DNA of 51,051 bases from Candidatus Woesearchaeota archaeon. Its GTDB lineage: Archaea > Nanobdellota > Nanobdellia > Woesearchaeales > ARS49. Positions within the stretch are counted from its first letter, which is position 1, and every line of letters begins with the position of its first letter. A program made the position numbers and the translations under genes. Positions 17,424 through 30,563 of the stretch are shown one piece after another. Location of the stretch: positions 1-51,051 of the forward strand of contig JAHWHC010000014.1 of assembly GCA_019323555.1 (NCBI GenBank), in the 5' to 3' direction. Below the pieces are notes generated by a model. It had not been told where the DNA came from, did no database searches, and saw nothing but the letters and a program-made list of their open reading frames with translations.

Positions 17424-17541
17424 TCGAAAAGTTTATAAACTAGAAGTCTTTTAATACCAGAATTCAGGTGATTTATCGTCTGAAAAGGGTTCAGGGGTTT
17501 CATGCTCCGAATTCAAAAATAAAAAGAGGAGGGTAACTAAA

Positions 17542-17841
17542 ATGGCAGAAAAAGTAGCTAAAGTTGGTGTAAAGAAAGCTGCTGGATATCTATATTTTGT
17601 AGACAAAAATGGTGATGTATCCAGAGCTAAAATGGCTAGGGGCCGCAAGAAAGGAGCTAAAAAGATTGAGAAAGTAGCTAAAGTCGGCGTAAAGAAAGTA
17701 AAGGGATACCTATACTTTATTGATGGAAAAGGAGACGTCTCAAGAGCAAAAATGGCTCGCGGCGGCAGAAAAAAGAAGGCTAAAAAGAAGAAAGTAAAGA
17801 AGAAAAAAGCCAAGAAAAAAGCTAAAAAGAAAAAGAAATAA
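17542..17841 (+). CDS. Small basic protein with two 40-aa tandem repeats and a poly-Lys tail; candidate nucleic-acid-binding protein
   Basis: Strong SD gaggaggg. The repeat EKVAKVGVKK..GYLYF(V/I)D..GDVSRAKMARG occurs twice, followed by KKKAKKKKVKKKKAKKKAKKKKK. Confidence 0.7.
   Translation: MAEKVAKVGVKKAAGYLYFVDKNGDVSRAKMARGRKKGAKKIEKVAKVGVKKVKGYLYFIDGKGDVSRAKMARGGRKKKAKKKKVKKKKAKKKAKKKKK
17548..17787 (+). repeat. In-frame 120-nt tandem duplication (2 copies) inside the basic protein gene
   Basis: The copies start at 17548 (gaaaaagtagctaaagttggtgtaaagaaa) and 17668 (gagaaagtagctaaagtcggcgtaaagaaa). They have diverged mostly at synonymous positions. Confidence 0.8.
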
Positions 17842-17953
17842 ATCTTTTCTTTCTAATTCTTTTTTTTTATGATTTTTTTATATTCCCTGTAATAGAAAAG
17901 TATATAAACTAATTCAGTAAACAGAAGATATAGTAATAAAATAGGTGGTTTGA

Positions 17954-20362: not shown

Positions 20363-21319
20363 TTATTCTTTGTCTAGCACTATTCTCGCTATGTTGCTGA
20401 CCAGTGTTGTTCCTGTCTTGATGTTCTCTACAAGCTCCACTGTTTCTGCTGCTGTGTTTTTTGTTATTAGGCTCGTGCACTGTTTTACAAGCTCTATTCT
20501 TTTTCTTGCTACTGCATCTGCCAGTGCTTTGTCGTCAGAGTGCAGGGCTTTCATGACTGTCGTGTATTGCTTGTCTAACTCTTCGAGTATTGGTTTTATT
20601 TTTACAAGTTCTTTTTTGTCTATTTTTCCTGCAGTTGTGCACATGTGCTTTACGCAGTCTGCAAGATTTTCCAGGTTCATTGATAAGTACCAGCTTGGAA
20701 GTATCTGTGTTTTTTCTATTCCTATGTCTTCTGCTAATTGTGTGTTTGTCACTGCACTTTTCAATAGTCTTGATAAAAGGAAGTATAGTCGATTGACGTC
20801 ATAGTCCCTGAACACTATTGTTTCGTAATTGAATTTTTTGTCTTCTACGCCGTCTGCAATGTCTTTTAGCATTGTTCTTACAATCATGTCCATTCTTTTT
20901 ATTGTCTTGTCCACAGATATTTCTTTTAGGTTCAGGAGGTCTTTTGCGATTATGCTTTTTGCTGTCTGCTCAGATATCTCTAGTGCCACAAAGTCGTGCA
21001 GCATTTTTCTGATTTGTTTTACTTTTTCAGCTAGGCTGTCGCCGAATATTGTGATTGTGTTATAGTTGTTTACATATGCTGCTGTGATTTCTCTTTGTAT
21101 TGTGTCTAGCTCTTTTTTGTCTATATTGATTGTTATCTCTTTTTGTTCCTGCACCTCTTGCTCCTGGCTCTGTTCAGGCATGATCACTAGTTCTCTGTCA
21201 GATTTCTCAACAAGATACACATTATGTCCTTTCTCTAGGTTGTTCTTTTCAATCCACTTTTTTGGTAAAGAAACAGTGTGGCTGGCAGGTCCTGCCTTTA
21301 CAAGTCTTCTGATATGCAT
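20363..21319 (-). CDS. AbrB/SpoVT-domain plus PhoU-repeat regulator (archaeal PhoU-like phosphate uptake regulator)
   Basis: N-terminus MHIRRLVKAGPASHTVSLPKKWIEKNNLEKGHNVYLVEK is an AbrB-like swapped hairpin, followed by helical PhoU-like repeats. The start is set at ATG 21319, 6 nt after SD gaggtgat. Confidence 0.7.
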   Translation of the reverse strand: MHIRRLVKAGPASHTVSLPKKWIEKNNLEKGHNVYLVEKSDRELVIMPEQSQEQEVQEQKEITINIDKKELDTIQREITAAYVNNYNTITIFGDSLAEKVKQIRKMLHDFVALEISEQTAKSIIAKDLLNLKEISVDKTIKRMDMIVRTMLKDIADGVEDKKFNYETIVFRDYDVNRLYFLLSRLLKSAVTNTQLAEDIGIEKTQILPSWYLSMNLENLADCVKHMCTTAGKIDKKELVKIKPILEELDKQYTTVMKALHSDDKALADAVARKRIELVKQCTSLITKNTAAETVELVENIKTGTTLVSNIARIVLDKE

Positions 21320-21405
21320 TAAAATCACCTCATTTTGTAAGTATTAAACGTATATTTGATATTGTAAATACGTTACGCTTATATAAATTTTTTGTATAGT
21401 TCTGT

Positions 21406-22206
21406 TTGTGGGTGGCAAACATAGCTGCTCCCTATAGTGATAATATGACATTAACAGATACTAAACACAGAACAAGCAGCAGCGTGGATAGAATAGTTCT
21501 TAATGCTGAAAATGAGGCACTGCAAAGAGAAGTGGATCGGTTAAAACGTAAAACTCGGCAGCTAGAATCTCAGGAAATGCTGCGCGAGGCTGAAACAGCT
21601 GCAGATTTTACAGCTGGACAGATGGATCGCACAGTATATAACGTTCGTAATGCAAATTATGGCATGGATAAATTAGTGTCTGCAATAGATGGAATACGAA
21701 GATATGATGCTTTATTGTCAAAAACACAGGGTGTGCAGGTGAATCCCCATAGAGAGGCAGTTACTGTAGTATATCTCTGTATGAACCATTATCAGCACAA
21801 GAGAGATAATATAAGCAAGACATCAGCACTGCGTGAATTGACAGAGCTTACTGGCAGGATTAACAAGTATTTTGAGATGCGTTGCAGGCCTGCTGATTGT
21901 TTTGCTAAAGGAGGCTGGCAAGATCATATGTTTATGTTTGTGCTTCCTGCTACAGACAGGGCAGGCGCAAAGACATTTTTAGATCGGGTTGTTAGGGTTG
22001 CGATTAAAGGCCATGAAGGTGCAGTTGATATTTCTTATGGTATTGCTAATCATGCTGCAGATGTCCAAGAATTGCATCCGCGCGAAGAGTCACGAGCTAT
22101 TGCATCAAGATTATTAGATGCTGCCAAGAAGATAGCTAGGGATCAAAATTCTGAATTTGCTGGCAGGATTGAAAAAGAAGCACAGTATCAGCATGATGCA
22201 GCTTAA
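21406..22206 (+). CDS. Coiled-coil protein with degenerate GGDEF-like (palm/cyclase-fold) C-terminal domain, predicted catalytically inactive
   Basis: The domain aligns by eye to GGDEF landmarks. VTVVYLCMNHYQHKRDN sits in place of lallDiDhFKxiND, CFAKGGWQDHMFMFVLPATD in place of RyGGDEFxxllP, VDISYGIAN in place of SiGva, and LLDAAKKIARDQ in place of ADxALYxAK. The start is uncertain: TTG 21406, GTG 21412 or ATG 21445. Confidence 0.55.
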   Translation: MWVANIAAPYSDNMTLTDTKHRTSSSVDRIVLNAENEALQREVDRLKRKTRQLESQEMLREAETAADFTAGQMDRTVYNVRNANYGMDKLVSAIDGIRRYDALLSKTQGVQVNPHREAVTVVYLCMNHYQHKRDNISKTSALRELTELTGRINKYFEMRCRPADCFAKGGWQDHMFMFVLPATDRAGAKTFLDRVVRVAIKGHEGAVDISYGIANHAADVQELHPREESRAIASRLLDAAKKIARDQNSEFAGRIEKEAQYQHDAA

Positions 22207-22435
22207 GTCTATATTTCTTCATAAATACACTCTTGATGCTATATACTTACAAAACGTATATGCAGTATAGTAAGTACGTCAAATATATATAATTCATGCA
22301 ACACTATAGTAATTAAGATGAATAAAACCTGAGGGCAGGTACCTGTGACGCAGGGCGTAAAAGCACAGGATCTGAACACAGGCCAAGGCTGAACGCCAAA
22401 ACCAAACGCTAAATGCCTTGTCCGCTTACCCTTTT

Positions 22436-22456
22436 ATCCTTTATTCATCCTTTATT
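22436..22456 (+). repeat. Tandem direct repeat atcctttatt(c)atcctttatt
   Basis: Two exact 10-mers with an 11-nt period, immediately after the GC-rich island. Confidence 0.6.
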
Positions 22457-22623
22457 ATCATTGGCAACATTGAGAAACAGTGGAGCTTTGTTTATTTAAG
22501 GCAAAGAAAAACACAAATAGGCGAAAAACGCACAGCTCATACCGGAGCGGTTGTTGGCTATCTTGCCGCTCCATCAAAAATTTACAAAAATGACACTCAC
22601 TCAACCCCCCTCGAAACTTAAAA

Positions 22624-22671
22624 GGCGCGTGCTCACGAATTCTTCAATTCAGCGCGCCTCCCTTTTTTTTT
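22624..22671 (+). terminator. Hairpin plus T9 intrinsic-terminator-like element
   Basis: The outer stem has six G-C pairs plus one U-G pair, and the inner stem is 5 bp GAATT/AATTC with loop cttc. It is followed by tccc and nine T residues. Confidence 0.5.
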
Positions 22672-22741
22672 ATAGTTCTCCATTATTGTTCATTGACAGG
22701 CCTGCCTTTGTTGAAATGATGATCACGCAGATCAAGAAAAG

Positions 22742-23839
22742 ATGATATTCAAAAACCAGGCCCTGGTTAATAGGTTCAAAAGATTTGTTAATTCTATAAC
22801 CCCTAAAGATCGCATAGCAGTCATTCATCACACAGATCCAGACGGCGTCTGCTCAGGAGTTATAATCTCCAAAGTTGTTGAAAGAGTTCGCGGAAAGAAG
22901 ATTGATTTGCGTTTAAATCAAAAAGGAAATGTTCACGTCATAACCCCCAAGACTTTTAATTTATTGAAATCTAAAAAGATAAATAAGCTTATACTGACTG
23001 ATTTGGGTGCAGACGAAAACCCAAAATACCTGAAAAAGATGGAGGAGTTTGCAGATGTTTTATTGATAGACCACCACAAGATTTACAATAATCTGTCCTC
23101 TAAAAAAACAGTTTTTATCAAGCCGCAGCTTTTCTGCAGTATTGACCCTGCACGATACGCGACTGCAAAGATGTGCTATGATCTTGGAGGGCTGGTTGCA
23201 GATGTCTCTGATCTTGATTGGCTTGCTGCAGTTGGTTCTGTGGGTGATATTGCAACAAAGCCCTGGGCCTCCTGGCTTAACCGTGTTTTTAAGAGGTATA
23301 AGATCAAGAAACAGAAGGATTTGTTTAAGACAAAATTTGGGCAGTGTGCAATTCTCATCAGTTCTGCAGAATCATTTGATGTTAAAAATGTAAAACTTGC
23401 TTTTGATGTCTTGTACAAGGCAAAGTCATACAAAGATGTTTTAAGATCCAAACTGAAGACTTTTAGGAAAAAGATTGATGATGAGCTTCAGAAATATCTG
23501 AAACAGCTAAAGAAAAATGCTCTTTTTGAGAAAGACATAATCTATTATGAAGTTAAGCCAAAGTATCACACAAAATCACCATTGTGCACGATTCTCGGAT
23601 TGAAATATCCTCACAAGTCTGTCTTGGTTGCAGACATATCTAGAAACCCTGTCGGCATCAGCGGCAGACGCGGCGATGTCAAGATAAAGATAAACAAGTC
23701 ATTGGAAGATGCCTGCAAAGGCATTTCAGGAGCATCTGCAGGAGGGCATGCAGTCTCTGCAGGAGCTACAGTTCCTAAAAAACACTACAAAAAATTCAAA
23801 TCACGCTTATTCAATATTTTAAATAAAAAAAGGAGGTGA
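22742..23839 (+). CDS. DHH/DHHA1-family phosphoesterase (NrnA/RecJ-like)
   Basis: Motifs VIHHTDPDGVCSG (DxD), LTDLG, LLIDHH (DHH), GSVGD and the C-terminal DHHA1 motif SAGGHAVSAGA. Confidence 0.75.
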   Translation: MIFKNQALVNRFKRFVNSITPKDRIAVIHHTDPDGVCSGVIISKVVERVRGKKIDLRLNQKGNVHVITPKTFNLLKSKKINKLILTDLGADENPKYLKKMEEFADVLLIDHHKIYNNLSSKKTVFIKPQLFCSIDPARYATAKMCYDLGGLVADVSDLDWLAAVGSVGDIATKPWASWLNRVFKRYKIKKQKDLFKTKFGQCAILISSAESFDVKNVKLAFDVLYKAKSYKDVLRSKLKTFRKKIDDELQKYLKQLKKNALFEKDIIYYEVKPKYHTKSPLCTILGLKYPHKSVLVADISRNPVGISGRRGDVKIKINKSLEDACKGISGASAGGHAVSAGATVPKKHYKKFKSRLFNILNKKRR

Positions 23840-23846
23840 AATAGAA

Positions 23847-24113
23847 ATGGCAAAATGTAAGACAATGTCATCAAAGACAATTGTTGTTATGATGCTGGGC
23901 ATCTTAGTGATAGTTGCTATAGTTGGCTTAGTAATGACCATGAAATCACAAGGCACTGGCAAGGCAGTATATTCCTCTGTACAGATGTGTCCTTATGGCC
24001 ACACTAGTCAGGCATCAGATTCACCGGTTTTAGAAGCTAAGATAAAAGCAGGCCAAGAATGCAGAAAAGCAGCATACCCTGGCTGGCACTGCTGCAAGAC
24101 AGCTATGCGCTGA
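23847..24113 (+). CDS. Small membrane-anchored Cys-rich protein (C...C...CC family, paralog of 19464..19844)
   Basis: SD ggaggtga, TM VVMMLGILVIVAIVGLVM, then C..SPVLEA..KAGQECRKA...WHCCKTA. Confidence 0.7.
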   Translation: MAKCKTMSSKTIVVMMLGILVIVAIVGLVMTMKSQGTGKAVYSSVQMCPYGHTSQASDSPVLEAKIKAGQECRKAAYPGWHCCKTAMR

Positions 24114-24168: not shown

Positions 24169-25152
24169 ATGGCTTATGAAGAGATATTGCTGAAGTTTTT
24201 GGACTTGCTTAACTCTGCAATGAACGTCGACCAGGTCCTTCAGCGTAGTTGTGACTTCTTTTATACAGAATTCCGGCTGGCAGACTGCTCAATAGCATTC
24301 AATAAAACTGAAAAAAGGCAGAACAATGCCCCGCAAGGCATGCAGGATGTTGAAAAAGTCATCAAGAGCCAGGTTCTTGACTCTAATTCTTTTCTGTTTA
24401 TCAAGGACCCAAAGTCAGATATATCTCTTTCTGATTGTAAGGGTGCTAAGGCAATAGATAACCCTATCCTTGCTTTTCCAATTCCTCATGAGCAGAAGGC
24501 AGTTGGTGTCTGTTTTTTTTATTCTAGCATTGACTTAAGCAATTATATTGAGCTTGTCTCCCTGCTTCTCTCTAAGATGGCTGTTGCCTGCTCAAGAGCA
24601 AAGTATTTTGAGGACGCGCAGCACTGTGCTATCACAGATCTTCTCACTGGCCTGTATAATAAGGCATATTTTATTGAGGCTATCAAGACAGAGATTGCTC
24701 GTGGAAAGCGCAATCAAAAGCCTCTTTCCTTGGTCATGTTTGATTTTGATAATTTCAAGGAATTGAATGACACCAAGGGGCATATGGAGGGAGACAGGAT
24801 CTTGAAAGAAGTTGGTAGGCTGCTCAAGGAGCAGATTCGCTCAATGGACATCCCTTGCAGGTATGGGGGAGAAGAATTTACTATCATTCTGCCGGAGACA
24901 GCGCAGGATGATGCGTTTTCTATTGCTGAACGGCTGAGAAAGTCTGTTGCAGATGCATTTTCTGGCTTGACAACTATCTCTTTAGGTGTTGTCACCTGCA
25001 TGAATTCCAGCATTGATGCTGACACCATGGTTAAGCAGGCAGATGCTGCGCTCTATAAGGCGAAGAATCTTGGAAAGAACAGGACTGTTAATTTTGTTGT
25101 GATTGATAAGAGCATTGCCCCCATTGATGTTCAGGCAGCAATAGGCAAGTGA
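24169..25152 (+). CDS. Diguanylate cyclase: N-terminal sensory (GAF-like?) region plus intact GGDEF domain
   Basis: DLLTGLYNKAYF, LVMFDFDNFKELNDTKGHMEGD and GGEEF (aa 233-237, nt 24865-24879). The RSMD I-site lies 5 residues upstream. Also ISLGVV and ADAALYKAKNLGKNR. Confidence 0.85.
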   Translation: MAYEEILLKFLDLLNSAMNVDQVLQRSCDFFYTEFRLADCSIAFNKTEKRQNNAPQGMQDVEKVIKSQVLDSNSFLFIKDPKSDISLSDCKGAKAIDNPILAFPIPHEQKAVGVCFFYSSIDLSNYIELVSLLLSKMAVACSRAKYFEDAQHCAITDLLTGLYNKAYFIEAIKTEIARGKRNQKPLSLVMFDFDNFKELNDTKGHMEGDRILKEVGRLLKEQIRSMDIPCRYGGEEFTIILPETAQDDAFSIAERLRKSVADAFSGLTTISLGVVTCMNSSIDADTMVKQADAALYKAKNLGKNRTVNFVVIDKSIAPIDVQAAIGK

Positions 25153-28071: not shown

Positions 28072-28206
28072 GGAAAAGCTTTATAAATTGTTCAGTAATC
28101 CGAATTCTTATGCCCTATCCTTTACAAAAGGATAGAACCCAAAGATGTGCTGCACAAGACAGCACGGGCGAAGGCTTATTCCAATAGGATATTCGCATTC
28201 AATTAA

Positions 28207-28293
28207 GCCTCCGTAGCTTAGTAGCTATAGCGGCTGACTTGTATCTAAATGCAAGCAATCAGCAGGTCGAGGGTGCAACTCCCTCCGGAGGCT
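28207..28293 (+). tRNA. tRNA-Thr (anticodon TGT) with 14-nt intron at canonical 37/38 position
   Basis: Acceptor GCCTCCG/CGGAGGC, D arm GCTT..AGC, anticodon stem GCTGA/TCAGC. The 21-nt loop is CTTGTA|tctaaatgcaagca|A. T arm GAGGG-TGCAACT-CCCTC, discriminator T, no encoded CCA. Exon CTTG pairs with intron CAAG, flanked by two 3-nt bulges (BHB). Confidence 0.85.
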
Positions 28294-28357
28294 TTCGAAG
28301 CATAAGCGAGAAAGCTGTACGGAGACCAGCCAAAAACTCTGTGAGTGTTGGAGCGCT

Positions 28358-28377
28358 GCCTCCGGAGGCTTATTTTT
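28358..28377 (+). terminator. Palindrome GCCTCCGGAGGC plus T-run downstream of tRNA-Thr
   Basis: 12-nt perfect palindrome followed by ttattttt. It repeats the last 12 nt of the tRNA (CCTCCGGAGGCT). Confidence 0.4.
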
Positions 28378-28397
28378 CAATAAAAAAAGGAGATAAT

Positions 28398-28856
28398 ATG
28401 AAAGAAATATATGATAAACTAAAAAAAGAATTTGATCTGCCGGATTTTGATGTTCTTAATAATGAGTTTGAGATCATTACAATTGAGCCAGACGGATTTT
28501 TCTTGAGAGAGATCAAGAGAAAAATAAATGAGCGGCTTAGTTCTGCTTGTGAATTATTGACAAAGCTGATTCAGCCAGAGACTACGTCCTTGGTTGACTT
28601 GTATGAATATCGGTGTTTTGATGATTCTGAAAAAAAGAAAATATTTGCGTTATTTTGCAATGTGATGTATCTAAAGCGAAAGATTAATGAATCAGAACTA
28701 TTGTTAGATGATAAGGTTGATGCTGCAATCATCAAGCAGGCAGCAGAGACTTGGCCTAAATTAAGGAAGCAGATGATTCCTTTTGTCAAGGAATTAGAGG
28801 TTTGCTGGGAAAAGACCCCAGAATCAGATACCGAGTTAAAGGAGTATTTAGGATGA
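28398..28856 (+). CDS. Hypothetical helical protein (152 aa), translationally coupled to adk
   Basis: ATG 28398 preceded by SD aggag (MKEIYDKLKKEFDLPDF...). The track ORF start at 28239 lies inside the tRNA and is rejected. ATGA overlap with adk. Confidence 0.6.
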   Translation: MKEIYDKLKKEFDLPDFDVLNNEFEIITIEPDGFFLREIKRKINERLSSACELLTKLIQPETTSLVDLYEYRCFDDSEKKKIFALFCNVMYLKRKINESELLLDDKVDAAIIKQAAETWPKLRKQMIPFVKELEVCWEKTPESDTELKEYLG

Positions 28857-30474: not shown

Positions 30475-30563
30475 CGCACTCGAGGGGATTCGAACCCCCG
30501 ACCCCTTGCTGGCTCCTTGGTAAATAGGAGGCAAGTGCTCTATCCAAGCTGAGCTACGAGTGC
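30475..30563 (-). tRNA. tRNA-Arg (anticodon CCT) with 14-nt intron at canonical 37/38 position
   Basis: The minus strand reads as follows. Acceptor GCACTCG, TA, D arm GCTC-AGCTTGGATA-GAGC, anticodon stem CTTGC. The loop is CTCCTA|tttaccaaggagcc|A, closed by GCAAG. Variable loop GGGTC, T arm GGGGG-TTCGAAT-CCCCT, acceptor CGAGTGC, discriminator G. Exon CTCC pairs with intron GGAG, flanked by 3-nt bulges. Confidence 0.85.

What the first reader, a model, noticed from the sequence alone, without database searches (positions are those of the whole stretch)
22207..22741. 535-bp gene-free interval with GC-rich hairpin-rich segments, its own TATA box and a hairpin+T9: unclassified RNA or riboswitch-like leader
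In a genome where intergenic spacers are typically under 100 bp, this interval has no credible ORF. Its contents, in order:
- A good TATA (aaatatatataa, 22281-22292).
- About 25 nt later, a ~105-nt island of roughly 55% GC (22328-22432). It contains CCTGTG...CACAGG and CAAGGC...GCCTTG pairings and a possible GGCGT/ACGCC long-range pair.
- A tandem atcctttatt repeat (22436-22456).
- A 7-bp hairpin at 22544-22572.
- A compound GC hairpin followed by T9 (22624-22671), about 70 nt before the DHH gene start.

In AT-rich archaea, GC-rich intergenic islands usually mark structured RNAs. The layout (promoter, structured segment, terminator-like hairpin, gene) also resembles a bacterial riboswitch leader. 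It sits between two GGDEF-type genes.
Basis: partly seen in the sequence, partly recalled or inferred. Interest (0 to 1): 0.65.

Follow-up and report, generated by a model that had tools for sequence, protein, structure and literature searches.

The report
Structured leader RNA plus hidden small gene
The "empty" 535-base gap in this Woesearchaeota (DPANN archaeon) genome holds a strong promoter, a roughly 275-base folded leader RNA found in no RNA database, and an unannotated 51-codon gene that overlaps the start of the next gene, so it looks like a new archaeal control region and not a free-standing RNA ending at a terminator.

Summary
Two of its readings fail.

- **Structured RNA domain.** The GC-rich island (22331-22433) is a real structured RNA. 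It is a three-way junction whose two hairpin loops pair with each other (GGCGU 22354-58 with ACGCC 22393-97). That loop-loop helix pairs in all 15 distinct homologues, and two of its five pairs covary. The domain is usually more conserved than the neighbouring protein gene, occurs once per locus, and matches no Rfam family.
- **Hidden small gene.** The interval is not gene-free. Positions 22590-22745 encode a conserved 51-aa protein whose stop overlaps the DHH start (ATGA).
  - It is intact in 14 of 14 relatives, and its indels are all multiples of three.
  - 40% of differing codons are synonymous in this frame, against 13% and 6.5% in the other two.
  - The "terminator" hairpin and T9 lie inside this gene.
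- **Mini-ORF.** A four-codon ORF (22318-22332) starts at the predicted transcription start and stops on the first helix of the domain.
- **Relatives.** More distant relatives keep the promoter, the C-rich motif and the GC hairpin in a short leader with no T-run.
- **The DHH gene** resembles archaeal RecJ nucleases. A true GGDEF gene lies two genes downstream.

Best reading: a cis-acting structured leader with a translationally coupled small ORF. What the leader senses is unknown, and no transcript data were available.

The parts
22244..22280 (.). Imperfect inverted repeat just upstream of the TATA box (ACGTAT 22254-59 ... TACGT 22275-79). Candidate operator for a transcription factor.
   Evidence: Inverted repeat I6. 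The ACGTA and TACGT columns are invariant in six loci. L001 has a perfect 10-bp version, AACGTATTTA/TAAATACGTT. The function is inferred.
22281..22292 (+). TATA-box promoter (AAATATATATAA)
   Evidence: Conserved in all 21 loci, including distant ones. TATATATAA occurs twice in 51 kb against 0.28 expected. A start site near 22317-22318 is inferred from the usual archaeal TATA-to-start spacing.
22318..22332 (+). Four-codon mini-ORF (ATG AAT AAA ACC TGA, MNKT*) at the predicted transcription start. Its stop codon overlaps the 5' strand of helix Pa.
   Evidence: An ATG lies 22-26 nt after the TATA box, leaving aside extra nearer ATGs in L131 and L134. Only L137/L138 lack one at that spacing. In long-leader loci it opens a 4-9 codon ORF ending TGA|GGGCAGG or TAG|GACAGG. 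In L136 the same ATG opens a 46-aa ORF. Translation is not shown.
22317..22449 (+). Outer 10-bp stem GATGAATAAA (22317-26)/TTTATTCATC (22440-49). It is specific to the window's closest relatives.
   Evidence: Perfect inverted repeat I7, part of the minimum-energy fold. The 3' arm is deleted in L130-L133 and L135.
22331..22433 (+). Core three-way-junction RNA domain.
- Pa: 22331-35 with 22429-33
- Pb: 22336-40 with 22370-74
- Pc: 22342-47 with 22364-69
- Pd: 22381-89 with 22415-23
- Invariant loop strands: UGA 22390-92 and CUAAAU 22409-14
   Evidence: - Fold z = -3.4.
- 24 pairs counted on 15 distinct sequences: 91.7% paired, 7 pairs changed on both sides, and 0 of 500 shuffles reach the observed values.
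- Pa changes GGG/CCC to GGA/UCC in L006 and L124.
- Pd changes G-C to A-U in L134.
- The covariance model gives one hit of 79-124 bits per long-leader locus and none elsewhere.
22354..22397 (+). Loop-loop (kissing) helix GGCGU 22354-58 with ACGCC 22393-97
   Evidence: 100% paired in 15 distinct sequences. Pair 34/69 is CG:7, UA:7, UG:1. Pair 30/73 is GC:13, UA:2.
22472..22485 (+). Nearly invariant single-stranded motif GAGAAACAGTGGAG
   Evidence: At most one substitution in any long-leader locus. Its partner or ligand is unknown. Pairing with 22600-22612 was predicted by RNAalifold but has no consistent register or covariation.
22498..22514 (+). Conserved A-rich motif AAGGCAAAGAAAAACAC
   Evidence: Conserved in the window and L006 clades. 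A related GAAGGCGUUUGAAAACACAC is present in L007 and L134.
22544..22572 (+). Hairpin HP1 (GGAGCGG/CCGCTCC) with conserved loop GGCTATC, 17 nt upstream of the small-ORF start
   Evidence: Present in all long-leader loci with changed stems: GGAGCGAG/CUCGCUCC in L006 and GGGCGAG/CUCGCCC in L007 and L134.
22590..22745 (+). Unannotated small ORF of 51 aa (MTLTQPPSKLKRRVLTNSSIQRASLFFYSSPLLFIDRPAFVEMMITQIKKR). Its stop TGA overlaps the DHH start (ATGA).
   Evidence: - Intact in 14 of 14 loci of the window and L006 clades, at 50-52 aa.
- Indels only in multiples of three.
- Synonymous fraction of differing codons 0.40, against 0.13 and 0.065 in the other frames. Stops: 0, against 53 and 40.
- Stop codons just upstream of the ATG in L005, L128, L130 and L131 fix the start.
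- Never called as a gene. The only database trace is the C-terminus of an over-extended 163-aa call.
22600..22612 (+). C-rich motif CTCAACCCCCCTC (codons L-T-Q-P-P-S of the small ORF)
   Evidence: No synonymous variation in the 14 small-ORF loci. Retained as CAAC(NN)CCCCC in L136, L137 and L139, where it is read in other frames. This points to nucleotide-level constraint.
22624..22658 (+). GC hairpin HP2 inside the small ORF: GGCGCG 22624-29/CGCGCC 22653-58, loop of 16-24 nt containing a conserved UUCUU-like stretch
   Evidence: - Arms conserved in all 21 loci.
- One compensatory G-C to A-U change in L137.
- The 3' arm is read in a different frame in L007, L136 and L139.
- The variable loop length argues against a DNA-binding palindrome (inference).
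22663..22671 (+). T9 run, codons (L)-F-F-(Y) of the small ORF
   Evidence: Coding frame. Broken by C in L129, L132 and L133, and absent in L136, L137 and L139. T7-T8 runs occur within other genes of the window. A role as an attenuator is not excluded.
22742..23839 (+). DHH/DHHA1 gene (365 aa), resembling archaeal RecJ-family nucleases. It is the gene the leader precedes.
   Evidence: Pfam DHH 7.5e-9 and DHHA1 1.3e-5. NCBIfam RecJ_archaeal 1.2e-25, below its cut-off. Best PDB match is M. jannaschii RecJ2 (6tvv), 9.8e-10.

Best explanation
The interval is a composite 5' control region of an operon: small ORF, RecJ-like DHH gene, 88-aa ORF, GGDEF gene.

Proposed sequence of events:
1. Transcription starts about 25 nt after the TATA box, at or next to an ATG (22318).
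2. That ATG opens a four-codon mini-ORF whose stop codon sits on the first helix of a roughly 105-nt RNA domain (22331-22433).
3. The domain is a three-way junction locked by a 5-bp loop-loop helix.
4. Next come about 150 nt of mostly A-rich RNA carrying near-invariant motifs and one hairpin (HP1).
5. Then comes a 51-codon small ORF (22590-22745) that contains a C-rich motif, a conserved GC hairpin and a T-run. It ends in ATGA, so ribosomes finishing it can restart on the DHH gene.

Most likely mechanism: the folded 5' domain is a cis-acting sensor for a protein, a metabolite or the translating ribosome. It sets how well the small ORF is translated, and the small ORF passes that on to DHH through termination-reinitiation. 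If the small ORF is not translated, the hairpin and T-run could also stop transcription early.

Shown here: the promoter motif, the RNA structure with covariation, the coding signature of the small ORF, the overlapping stop and start, and the fixed linkage to the DHH gene.

Inferred: the transcription start, translation of either ORF, any sensing, and the direction of regulation.
For: - **Conservation.** The noncoding block is about 95% identical among relatives whose DHH proteins are 80-87% identical, and it carries frameshifting indels. The 5' domain is 79-97% identical to the window in relatives whose DHH DNA is 66-84% identical, and it is the more conserved of the two in all but L079.
- **Structure.** See the counts: the kissing helix pairs in all 15 sequences and two of its five pairs covary.
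- **Not a known family.** No Rfam match.
- **Copy number.** One copy per locus, always directly upstream of DHH and on the same strand, in all 18 loci and in L134 and L135. The covariance model finds no other copy.
- **Short-leader relatives.** Relatives with DHH 42-47% identical keep the same promoter, the CAAC..CCCCC motif and the GGCGCR/YGCGCC hairpin in a 120-330 nt stretch that runs into DHH without a T-run. That core is therefore part of the DHH transcript.
- **Small ORF.** Coding signature and ATGA overlap.
- **Mini-ORF.** An ATG conserved at the predicted start.
- **Precedent.** A riboswitch-controlled uORF that drives the downstream gene by termination-reinitiation is documented in M. 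tuberculosis ppe2 (PMC11260477).
Against: - No transcript data. Four metatranscriptome runs from the same studies as runs that hold this DNA gave no reads on it, and no RNA run holds the sequence. The 5' end, any 3' end at T9 and any processing are therefore unknown.
- No alternative, mutually exclusive helices with comparative support were found between the 5' domain and the small-ORF start. Duplex predictions are weak and change register between sequences.
- Gene order around the locus is conserved as a whole, so synteny alone is weak evidence for a functional link.
- The junction strands of the three-way junction vary. The conserved unpaired bases sit in the Pd loop.
- The relatives sampled form one lineage of Woesearchaeota, in perhaps five or six independent sub-lineages, so covariation rests on few events.
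- Translation of the mini-ORF and of the small ORF is not shown.
Confidence: 0.55

Rival explanations
1. The three-way-junction domain is a true metabolite riboswitch aptamer, for example for c-di-GMP, pGpG or another nucleotide signal made or degraded by the operon's products, and it controls the operon in response to that ligand.
For: - Compact three-way junction with covarying kissing loops and invariant unpaired bases (UGA, CUAAAU) next to the kissing helix, as in ligand-binding folds.
- Located in a 5' leader.
- An intact GGEEF diguanylate-cyclase-type gene lies in the same gene string in every long-leader locus.
Against: - No match to any riboswitch family in Rfam, including c-di-GMP-I and -II, even at E <= 10.
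- The DHH protein resembles RecJ nucleases, not known pGpG or c-di-AMP phosphodiesterases.
- L136 has DHH and GGDEF but no such domain.
- No supported switching helices.
- From background knowledge, riboswitches are rare in archaea and none has been reported from DPANN archaea.
Confidence: 0.13
2. It is an independent, roughly 355-nt non-coding RNA gene (about 22317-22671) with its own promoter and an oligo-T terminator. It acts in trans, for example as part of a ribonucleoprotein or by base pairing through its invariant single-stranded motifs. The T-run followed by ATA doubles as the TATA box of a separate DHH transcript.
For: - Strong promoter.
- Very high conservation.
- Invariant unpaired motifs.
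- T9 followed by ATAG.
- The spacing from the T-run to the conserved AGGCCTG is 28 nt in the window, L130 and L006, which fits a TATA-to-start distance.
Against: - The hairpin, the T-run and the following 70 nt are under protein-coding constraint.
- The T-run is interrupted in L129, L132 and L133, where no TATA-like sequence follows it in L132 or L133.
- Distant relatives have no T-run and no room for a second promoter.
- The domain is missing from the distant relatives L136, L137, L139 and L140, so it is not a universal housekeeping RNA.
Confidence: 0.15
3. The leader is a binding platform for a protein that autoregulates the operon. Candidates are the RecJ-like nuclease, the basic small-ORF peptide, or the divergently encoded AbrB-PhoU-type regulator. 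The repeated GC hairpins and A-rich motifs would be the protein sites. This differs from the best explanation only in naming the input.
For: - HP1 and HP2 are similar hairpins. In L136 both read UGGCG.G...C.CGCCAUCAU.
- Four GGC-in-A-rich-context motifs occur in the leader (sequence).
- The N-terminal half of the small-ORF peptide is basic (KLKRR).
- The AbrB-PhoU gene and DHH form a divergent pair conserved across all lineages sampled.
Against: No direct evidence at all. AbrB-type domains are DNA binders. The hairpin similarity could reflect duplication without function.
Confidence: 0.12
4. The GC-rich island is the relic of a small mobile element (MITE-like, with 10-bp terminal inverted repeats GATGAATAAA/TTTATTCATC) inserted into an ancestral leaderless small gene, and it has no present function.
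For: - Perfect 10-bp inverted repeat flanking the island.
- Short-leader relatives lack the island.
- In L136 the ATG at the start site opens one continuous small ORF that reaches DHH, which fits an insertion splitting that ORF.
Against: - No second copy in the window or in any locus.
- The inverted repeat is not conserved, whereas the interior is.
- Compensatory changes keep four helices and the kissing helix.
- The island is usually more conserved than the adjacent coding DNA.
Confidence: 0.03
5. It is a highly diverged copy of a universal RNA: SRP RNA (whose Alu domain is also a three-way junction with kissing loops), RNase P RNA or 5S rRNA.
For: The topology resembles the SRP Alu domain at the 5' end of a roughly 300-nt RNA (resemblance from memory only).
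Against: - No Rfam hit to Archaea_SRP, the RNase P families or 5S at E <= 10.
- No helix-8-like motif seen on reading the sequence.
- The domain is absent from related lineages.
- The 3' part is protein-coding.
Confidence: 0.02

Closest known systems
Riboswitch-controlled translated uORF with termination-reinitiation (M. tuberculosis ppe2 B12 leader; PMC11260477)
   Same: A structured sensing RNA in a long 5' leader, followed by a short translated ORF whose translation is needed for the downstream gene through overlapping or adjacent stop and start.
   Different: That system is bacterial, has a known ligand (B12) and a known aptamer class, and was tested by experiment. Here the organism is a DPANN archaeon, the fold matches no family, the input is unknown, and nothing has been tested experimentally.
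Purine-riboswitch-type 'tuning fork' fold (Rfam RF00167)
   Same: A closing helix and two hairpins that form a three-way junction, with Watson-Crick loop-loop pairs between the two hairpins.
   Different: No covariance-model match. The domain is about 105 nt against about 70. The junction strands vary, and the conserved unpaired bases sit in one loop beside the kissing helix, whereas purine riboswitches bind the ligand in a conserved junction.
Bacterial leader-peptide attenuators (trp, his and erm-type leaders)
   Same: Short ORFs in a leader, a GC hairpin followed by a U-run, and a possible link between translation of the leader ORF and read-through.
   Different: Here the hairpin and U-run lie inside the ORF. 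The ORF is 51 codons, conserved as a protein, and overlaps the next start. No alternative anti-terminator helix was found. Archaeal termination does not need a hairpin.
c-di-GMP-I and c-di-GMP-II riboswitches (Rfam RF01051, RF01786)
   Same: A leader RNA next to genes of cyclic-dinucleotide metabolism.
   Different: No match at E <= 10. The shared ACGCACAG string with the Vc2 RNA (recalled from memory) is not conserved in homologues.
SRP RNA Alu domain
   Same: A 5'-terminal three-way junction with loop-loop tertiary pairs.
   Different: No Rfam match, no S-domain motifs, lineage-restricted, and part of an mRNA leader.

Membership tests
Any Rfam 15 family (4227 models) | Covariance-model score at or above the family's gathering score | tested here: not met
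   At gathering score the window gives only two tRNAs elsewhere. At E <= 10 the interval gives only chance snoRNA-type hits of 13-15 bits. The homologues L003, L006, L007, L133, L134, L135 and L136 give nothing in the element.
Riboswitch (general) | Conserved structured aptamer in the 5' leader of the regulated gene | tested here: met
   Three-way junction plus kissing helix with covariation, downstream of the predicted transcription start and always upstream of DHH.
Riboswitch (general) | Direct, specific binding of a small-molecule ligand | not testable with these tools
   Needs in-line probing, ITC or similar.
Riboswitch (general) | Expression platform with mutually exclusive helices (terminator/anti-terminator, or start-site sequestering) | tested here: inconclusive
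   The hairpin + T9 is inside a coding ORF. The predicted pairing of 22472-85 with 22600-12 has no consistent register or covariation.
Independent archaeal ncRNA gene | Own promoter and own terminator delimiting a non-coding transcript | tested here: inconclusive
   The promoter is met. The terminator is doubtful, because T9 is coding, is interrupted in three relatives and is absent in distant ones. No RNA reads are available.
Protein-coding small ORF (22590-22745) | Open frame kept across lineages, in-frame indels, and an excess of synonymous change in one frame only | tested here: met
   14 of 14 intact, lengths 50-52 aa, synonymous fraction 0.40 against 0.13 and 0.065, stops 0 against 53 and 40.
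Protein-coding small ORF (22590-22745) | Evidence of translation (ribosome footprints or a detected peptide) | not testable with these tools
   No such data are available for this uncultured lineage.
Intrinsic-terminator-like element | Short GC stem, loop of 3-8 nt, then a T-run, at the end of a transcription unit | tested here: not met
   The scan found no + strand site here. The loop is 23 nt. The element is inside an ORF. The T-run is absent in L136, L137 and L139 although the hairpin is kept.
MITE / small mobile element | Multiple dispersed copies with terminal inverted repeats | tested here: not met
   Single copy in the window and in each locus. The terminal repeat is not conserved.
   Upstream gene: no hit at E <= 10 and a weak BLASTP match, E = 0.019. 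Gene directly downstream: DHH. The GGDEF gene at 24169-25152 scores 1.2e-42.

The most novel reading that the evidence does not exclude
The kissing-loop three-way junction is a new class of archaeal riboswitch that senses a nucleotide second messenger (c-di-GMP or a relative) and, through a translated leader ORF, controls a RecJ-like nuclease together with one of the very few genuine archaeal GGDEF cyclases. That would be the first evidence of riboswitch-based cyclic-dinucleotide signalling in Archaea.
Probability: 0.1. Interest if true: 0.85.

Novelty: new variant of a known kind. Interest (0 to 1): 0.55.

Why it matters
- Structured cis-regulatory RNAs and riboswitches are scarce in Archaea, and I know of none described for DPANN archaea. 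A full-text search for Woesearchaeota together with riboswitch found no paper.
- This element gives a concrete, covariation-backed RNA fold with exact coordinates, a covariance model and a set of natural variants. It can go straight into probing and reporter experiments.
- It shows that a "gene-free" gap hides a conserved 51-aa gene that no pipeline called. Its coupling to a RecJ/Cdc45-type nuclease gene may bear on replication or repair control in reduced genomes.
- It lies in the same gene string as a bona fide GGDEF gene. Reviews describe this domain as almost absent from Archaea (PMC5847659, PMC10086821), so the locus is a good entry point for asking whether c-di-GMP signalling exists there.

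Tried and rejected
- **Known RNA families.** Rfam at gathering score and at E <= 10, on the window and on seven homologues, gave nothing. ARAGORN found only a tRNA elsewhere.
- **Repeats or mobile element.** No other copy in the window or in any locus.
- **First genome-wide pattern scan.** The pattern AAATGCCTTGN{35,65}GAGAAACAG was too loose. It returned 119 or more loci, nearly all chance hits in bacteria. Only L034, L053, L079, L099 and L124 were real.
- **Transcript evidence.** No RNA run holds the window or L001 version, and four metatranscriptomes from the same studies as DNA-holding runs gave zero coverage.
- **Housekeeping RNA (RNase P, SRP, 5S).** Considered because of the size and the kissing-loop junction. 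Rejected on Rfam results, on absence from sister lineages and on the coding 3' part.
- **K-turn or C/D-box reading** of GGCUGA...CUAAAUGCC. Rejected on inspection, because the required tandem G-A pairs are missing.
- **Long-range pairing AGUG/CACU** between 22472-85 and 22600-12. It has an apparent compensatory change in L007 (AGAG/CUCU), but L134 contradicts it. The RNAalifold register is contradicted by L007. Duplex energies are weak. Left open.
- **P-a 5' strand (GAGGG) pairing alternatively with CCCUC in 22608-12.** Not conserved in the L006 clade.
- **Origin-recognition-box resemblance** of GAGAAACAGTGGAG (shared CAGTGGA, recalled from memory). It is single-copy with no dyad, so it was not pursued.
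- **Small-ORF homologues.** The word-based search found none. A full HMMER scan of 1.8 billion representatives found only an over-extended 163-aa call ending in the same peptide, plus one uninterpretable hit. Pfam found nothing.
Full report
**Organism and setting**

The window is 39.9% G+C and carries tRNA genes with 16-nt anticodon-loop insertions. Close homologues of its DHH protein are named Candidatus Woesearchaeota, so it comes from a DPANN archaeon.

The interval 22207-22741 lies between a 266-aa ORF (21406-22206) and a 365-aa DHH/DHHA1 gene (22742-23839). It is the second-longest of 52 spacers in the window, where the median is about 30 bp.

**Checking the observation**

All the listed sequence features are present at the stated coordinates:
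- the TATA box at 22281-22292
- a 55.2% G+C island at 22328-22432
- the TCCTTTATT tandem repeat
- the hairpin at 22544-22572
- the GC hairpin followed by T9

The + strand of 22310-22460 folds into a closed multi-branch structure better than every one of 200 shuffles (z = -3.4). The - strand does not.

Rfam finds nothing here at gathering score or at E <= 10.

**Comparative evidence**

I collected the DNA upstream of DHH homologues with the look-up of encoding contigs. Two pattern scans followed. The first was too loose and mostly returned chance hits.

Relatives whose DHH proteins are 80-87% identical have a noncoding block about 95% identical to 22250-22741. That block carries 1-, 2- and 4-nt indels upstream of 22590.

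In all 18 loci, and in L134 and L135, the block sits directly upstream of DHH on the same strand. The 5' domain is 79-97% identical to the window in relatives whose DHH DNA is 66-84% identical, and it is the more conserved of the two in all but L079.

The upstream 266-aa gene is present in some loci and absent in others, for example L001, L006 and L007. It is therefore not part of the unit.

**The structured RNA domain**

The core at 22331-22433 is a three-way junction:

| Helix | 5' strand | 3' strand |
|---|---|---|
| Pa | 22331-35 | 22429-33 |
| Pb | 22336-40 | 22370-74 |
| Pc | 22342-47 | 22364-69 |
| Pd | 22381-89 | 22415-23 |
| Loop-loop helix | GGCGU 22354-58 (Pc loop) | ACGCC 22393-97 (Pd loop) |

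Counts on 15 distinct sequences:
- The loop-loop helix pairs in every sequence. One of its pairs is C-G in 7 sequences, U-A in 7 and U-G in 1. Another is G-C in 13 and U-A in 2.
- Over all 24 counted pairs, 91.7% of cells pair and 7 pairs change on both sides.
- None of 500 shuffles reaches the observed values, and sliding the partners by 1-3 columns drops pairing to 23-47%.

Other compensatory changes:
- Pa switches from GGG/CCC to GGA/UCC in the L006 clade.
- Pd shows G-C to A-U in L134.
- Pc is replaced by GCAUUG/CAAUGC in L007 and by a longer helix in L134.

The outer 10-bp stem 22317-26/22440-49 and the tandem repeat are specific to the window's nearest relatives.

A covariance model of the domain hits once per long-leader locus (79-124 bits). 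It hits nowhere else in the window and nowhere in the distant loci.

**The rest of the leader**

Downstream of the domain the RNA is mostly A-rich and predicted to be unpaired. It carries:
- the nearly invariant motif GAGAAACAGUGGAG (22472-85)
- the motif AAGGCAAAGAAAAACAC (22498-514)
- hairpin HP1 (22544-72), whose stem changes between clades and whose loop GGCUAUC is conserved in two clades

I found no supported partner for the invariant motifs.

**The hidden small gene**

The distance from the GC hairpin to the DHH ATG is 80, 83 or 86 nt in different relatives. That led me to test for coding.

An ATG at 22590 opens a 51-codon frame that ends in TGA at 22743-45, overlapping the DHH ATG as ATGA. 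The evidence that it is a gene:
- The frame is intact in all 14 loci of the window and L006 clades, at 50-52 aa.
- The peptides are clearly related, for example MT[LI]TQPPSK...RA[ST][LF]FF...P[LI][LIF].[IL][DN][RK]PAFVE.
- Stop codons lie 2-4 codons upstream of the ATG in L005, L128, L130 and L131, which fixes the start.
- Differing codons are synonymous in 40% of cases in this frame, against 13% and 6.5% in the other two. In-frame stops number 0, against 53 and 40.

The gene was never called in any assembly. Its only database trace is the C-terminus of an over-extended 163-aa prediction. It has no Pfam match.

GGCGCG falls in the R-R-V codons, CGCGCC in R-A, and the T-run in L-F-F-Y.

**Constraint beyond coding**

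Two elements inside the small ORF also look constrained at the nucleotide level.
- **C-rich motif (22600-12).** It shows no synonymous change in the 14 loci, and it uses CCC CCC in an AT-rich genome.
- **GC hairpin.**
  - Its arms persist in L007, L136, L137 and L139, where the 3' arm is read in another frame.
  - L137 carries a compensatory G-C to A-U change.
  - The loop varies from 16 to 24 nt but keeps a UUCUU-like stretch.

Variable spacing argues for an RNA hairpin and against a DNA palindrome (inference).

The T-run is interrupted by C in L129, L132 and L133 and is absent in the distant loci. T7-T8 runs in the sense strand occur inside other genes of the window. It is therefore not good evidence for a dedicated terminator, though an attenuating effect cannot be excluded.

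**The 5' end**

An ATG lies 22-26 nt after the TATA box, leaving aside extra nearer ATGs in L131 and L134. Only L137/L138 lack one at that spacing. Given the usual archaeal spacing (TATA box centred near -26/-27, background knowledge), transcription should start at or next to this ATG.
- In the long-leader loci it opens a 4-9 codon ORF. In the window this is 22318-22332, MNKT*. Its stop codon touches helix Pa (TGA|GGGCAGG or TAG|GACAGG).
- In L136 the same ATG opens a 46-codon ORF. That ORF runs through the C-rich motif and the hairpin and overlaps the DHH start by 23 nt.

This suggests the ancestral state was a leaderless small gene directly ahead of DHH. The structured domain would then be a later insertion or expansion that split it (inference).

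**Distant relatives**

Loci with DHH 42-47% identical (L136, L137/138, L139/140) share several features with the window:
- the divergent AbrB-PhoU/DHH gene pair
- the promoter AAGTATATATAAATCTTTTG
- the CAAC..CCCCC motif
- the GC hairpin

These all lie in a 120-330 nt stretch with no T-run. L137-L140 have no GGDEF gene downstream. The conserved core therefore belongs to the DHH transcript, and its tie is to DHH, not to GGDEF.

**The neighbouring genes**

The DHH protein resembles archaeal RecJ-family nucleases: NCBIfam RecJ_archaeal at 1.2e-25, below its cut-off, and PDB M. jannaschii RecJ2 at 9.8e-10. This weakens the idea that it is a pGpG phosphodiesterase.

The gene at 24169-25152 is a strong GGDEF match with an intact GGEEF site. 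It is conserved in this gene string in many assemblies.

The upstream 266-aa protein has only a faint GGDEF-like match.

**Interpretation**

The best-supported reading is a cis-acting composite leader. Its order is: promoter, mini-ORF at the transcript start, folded sensor-like domain, A-rich spacer with HP1, then a small ORF coupled to DHH by an ATGA overlap.

A documented parallel is the riboswitch-controlled uORF of M. tuberculosis ppe2. There, uORF translation is needed for the downstream gene through termination-reinitiation (PMC11260477).

What the domain senses is unknown. I give about 0.55 to the cis-leader model as a whole. A metabolite riboswitch (0.13) and a protein-binding autoregulatory leader (0.12) name specific inputs for the same element and are scored as separate rivals. 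An independent trans-acting RNA that ends at the T-run gets about 0.15.

No transcript data could be obtained. The start site, any 3' end and translation of both ORFs therefore remain inferences.

**Novelty**

The RNA fold matches no Rfam family. A full-text search for Woesearchaeota with riboswitch returned no paper. The small ORF is unannotated.

The kind of thing, a structured leader with a coupled uORF, is known from bacteria. The combination seen here, in a DPANN archaeon, appears to be new.

Noticed in passing
window 24169-25152 (+): A bona fide GGDEF-domain protein (Pfam 1.2e-42, intact GGEEF motif). It is conserved downstream of DHH in L001, L003-L007 and L134-L136. Reviews describe GGDEF as almost absent from Archaea and ask whether such genes are contamination. 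Here the conserved synteny on contigs of up to 580 kb argues that it is a genuine archaeal gene.
   Followed up: partly
window 22244-22280: Inverted repeat (ACGTAT ... TACGT) directly upstream of the TATA box, conserved across loci and perfect over 10 bp in L001. It looks like an operator shared by the divergent AbrB/MazE-PhoU-type gene (20363-21328, - strand) and the leader promoter. The AbrB-PhoU/DHH divergent pair is kept even in relatives with only 42% DHH identity.
   Followed up: partly
window 21406-22206 (+): The 266-aa gene upstream of the interval (coiled-coil N-terminus, faint GGDEF-like C-terminus with GGWQDH in place of GGDEF) is present in the window, L003, L005, L130 and L133. 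It is absent in L001, L006, L007, L134 and L135. It is a variable insertion between the AbrB-PhoU gene and the leader promoter.
   Followed up: partly
window 23847-24113 (+): An 88-aa ORF between DHH and GGDEF with no Pfam or NCBIfam match. It is conserved (87-123 aa) in all long-leader loci. In L136 it is absent, and the GGDEF protein there is about 94 aa longer (421 against 327 aa), which hints at a fusion or split.
   Followed up: no
window 28207-28293 (+) and 30475-30563 (-): Two tRNA genes, each with a 16-nt insertion in the anticodon loop (intron-like). ARAGORN reports only the second.
   Followed up: no
L034 (CAYGYR010000001.1, 585 kb) and L079 (CAZXEZ010000015.1): These GTDB-representative contigs are titled 'uncultured Methanosarcinales archaeon'. 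They carry the same leader and a DHH gene 65% and 90% identical to the window's Woesearchaeota gene, so they are probably mislabelled.
   Followed up: no
L134:2590-2720: This relative has an extra insertion of about 120 nt in the leader. It includes a long near-perfect inverted repeat (ACACGAAAAAAATCCTGCGGGATTTTTTTGTGT), possibly a small mobile element or an added hairpin.
   Followed up: no
L079 and L133 against the window: Mosaic similarity. In these two loci the DHH gene is closer to the window (84% and 76% DNA identity) than expected from their leaders, and L133's leader resembles that of L132, whose DHH is only 60% identical at the protein level. This suggests recombination between lineages near the leader/DHH boundary.
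   Followed up: no
L004 (WJJT01000008.1), contig end: This assembly's contig stops 65 nt upstream of the DHH ATG, inside the small ORF close to the T-run. It may be an assembly break at the homopolymer.
   Followed up: no
window 17504-17953 and 28072-28801: Two other unusually long spacers (450 and 730 bp). The first contains the only other T9 run in the window (17860-17868). The second holds a tRNA. Neither was examined further.
   Followed up: no
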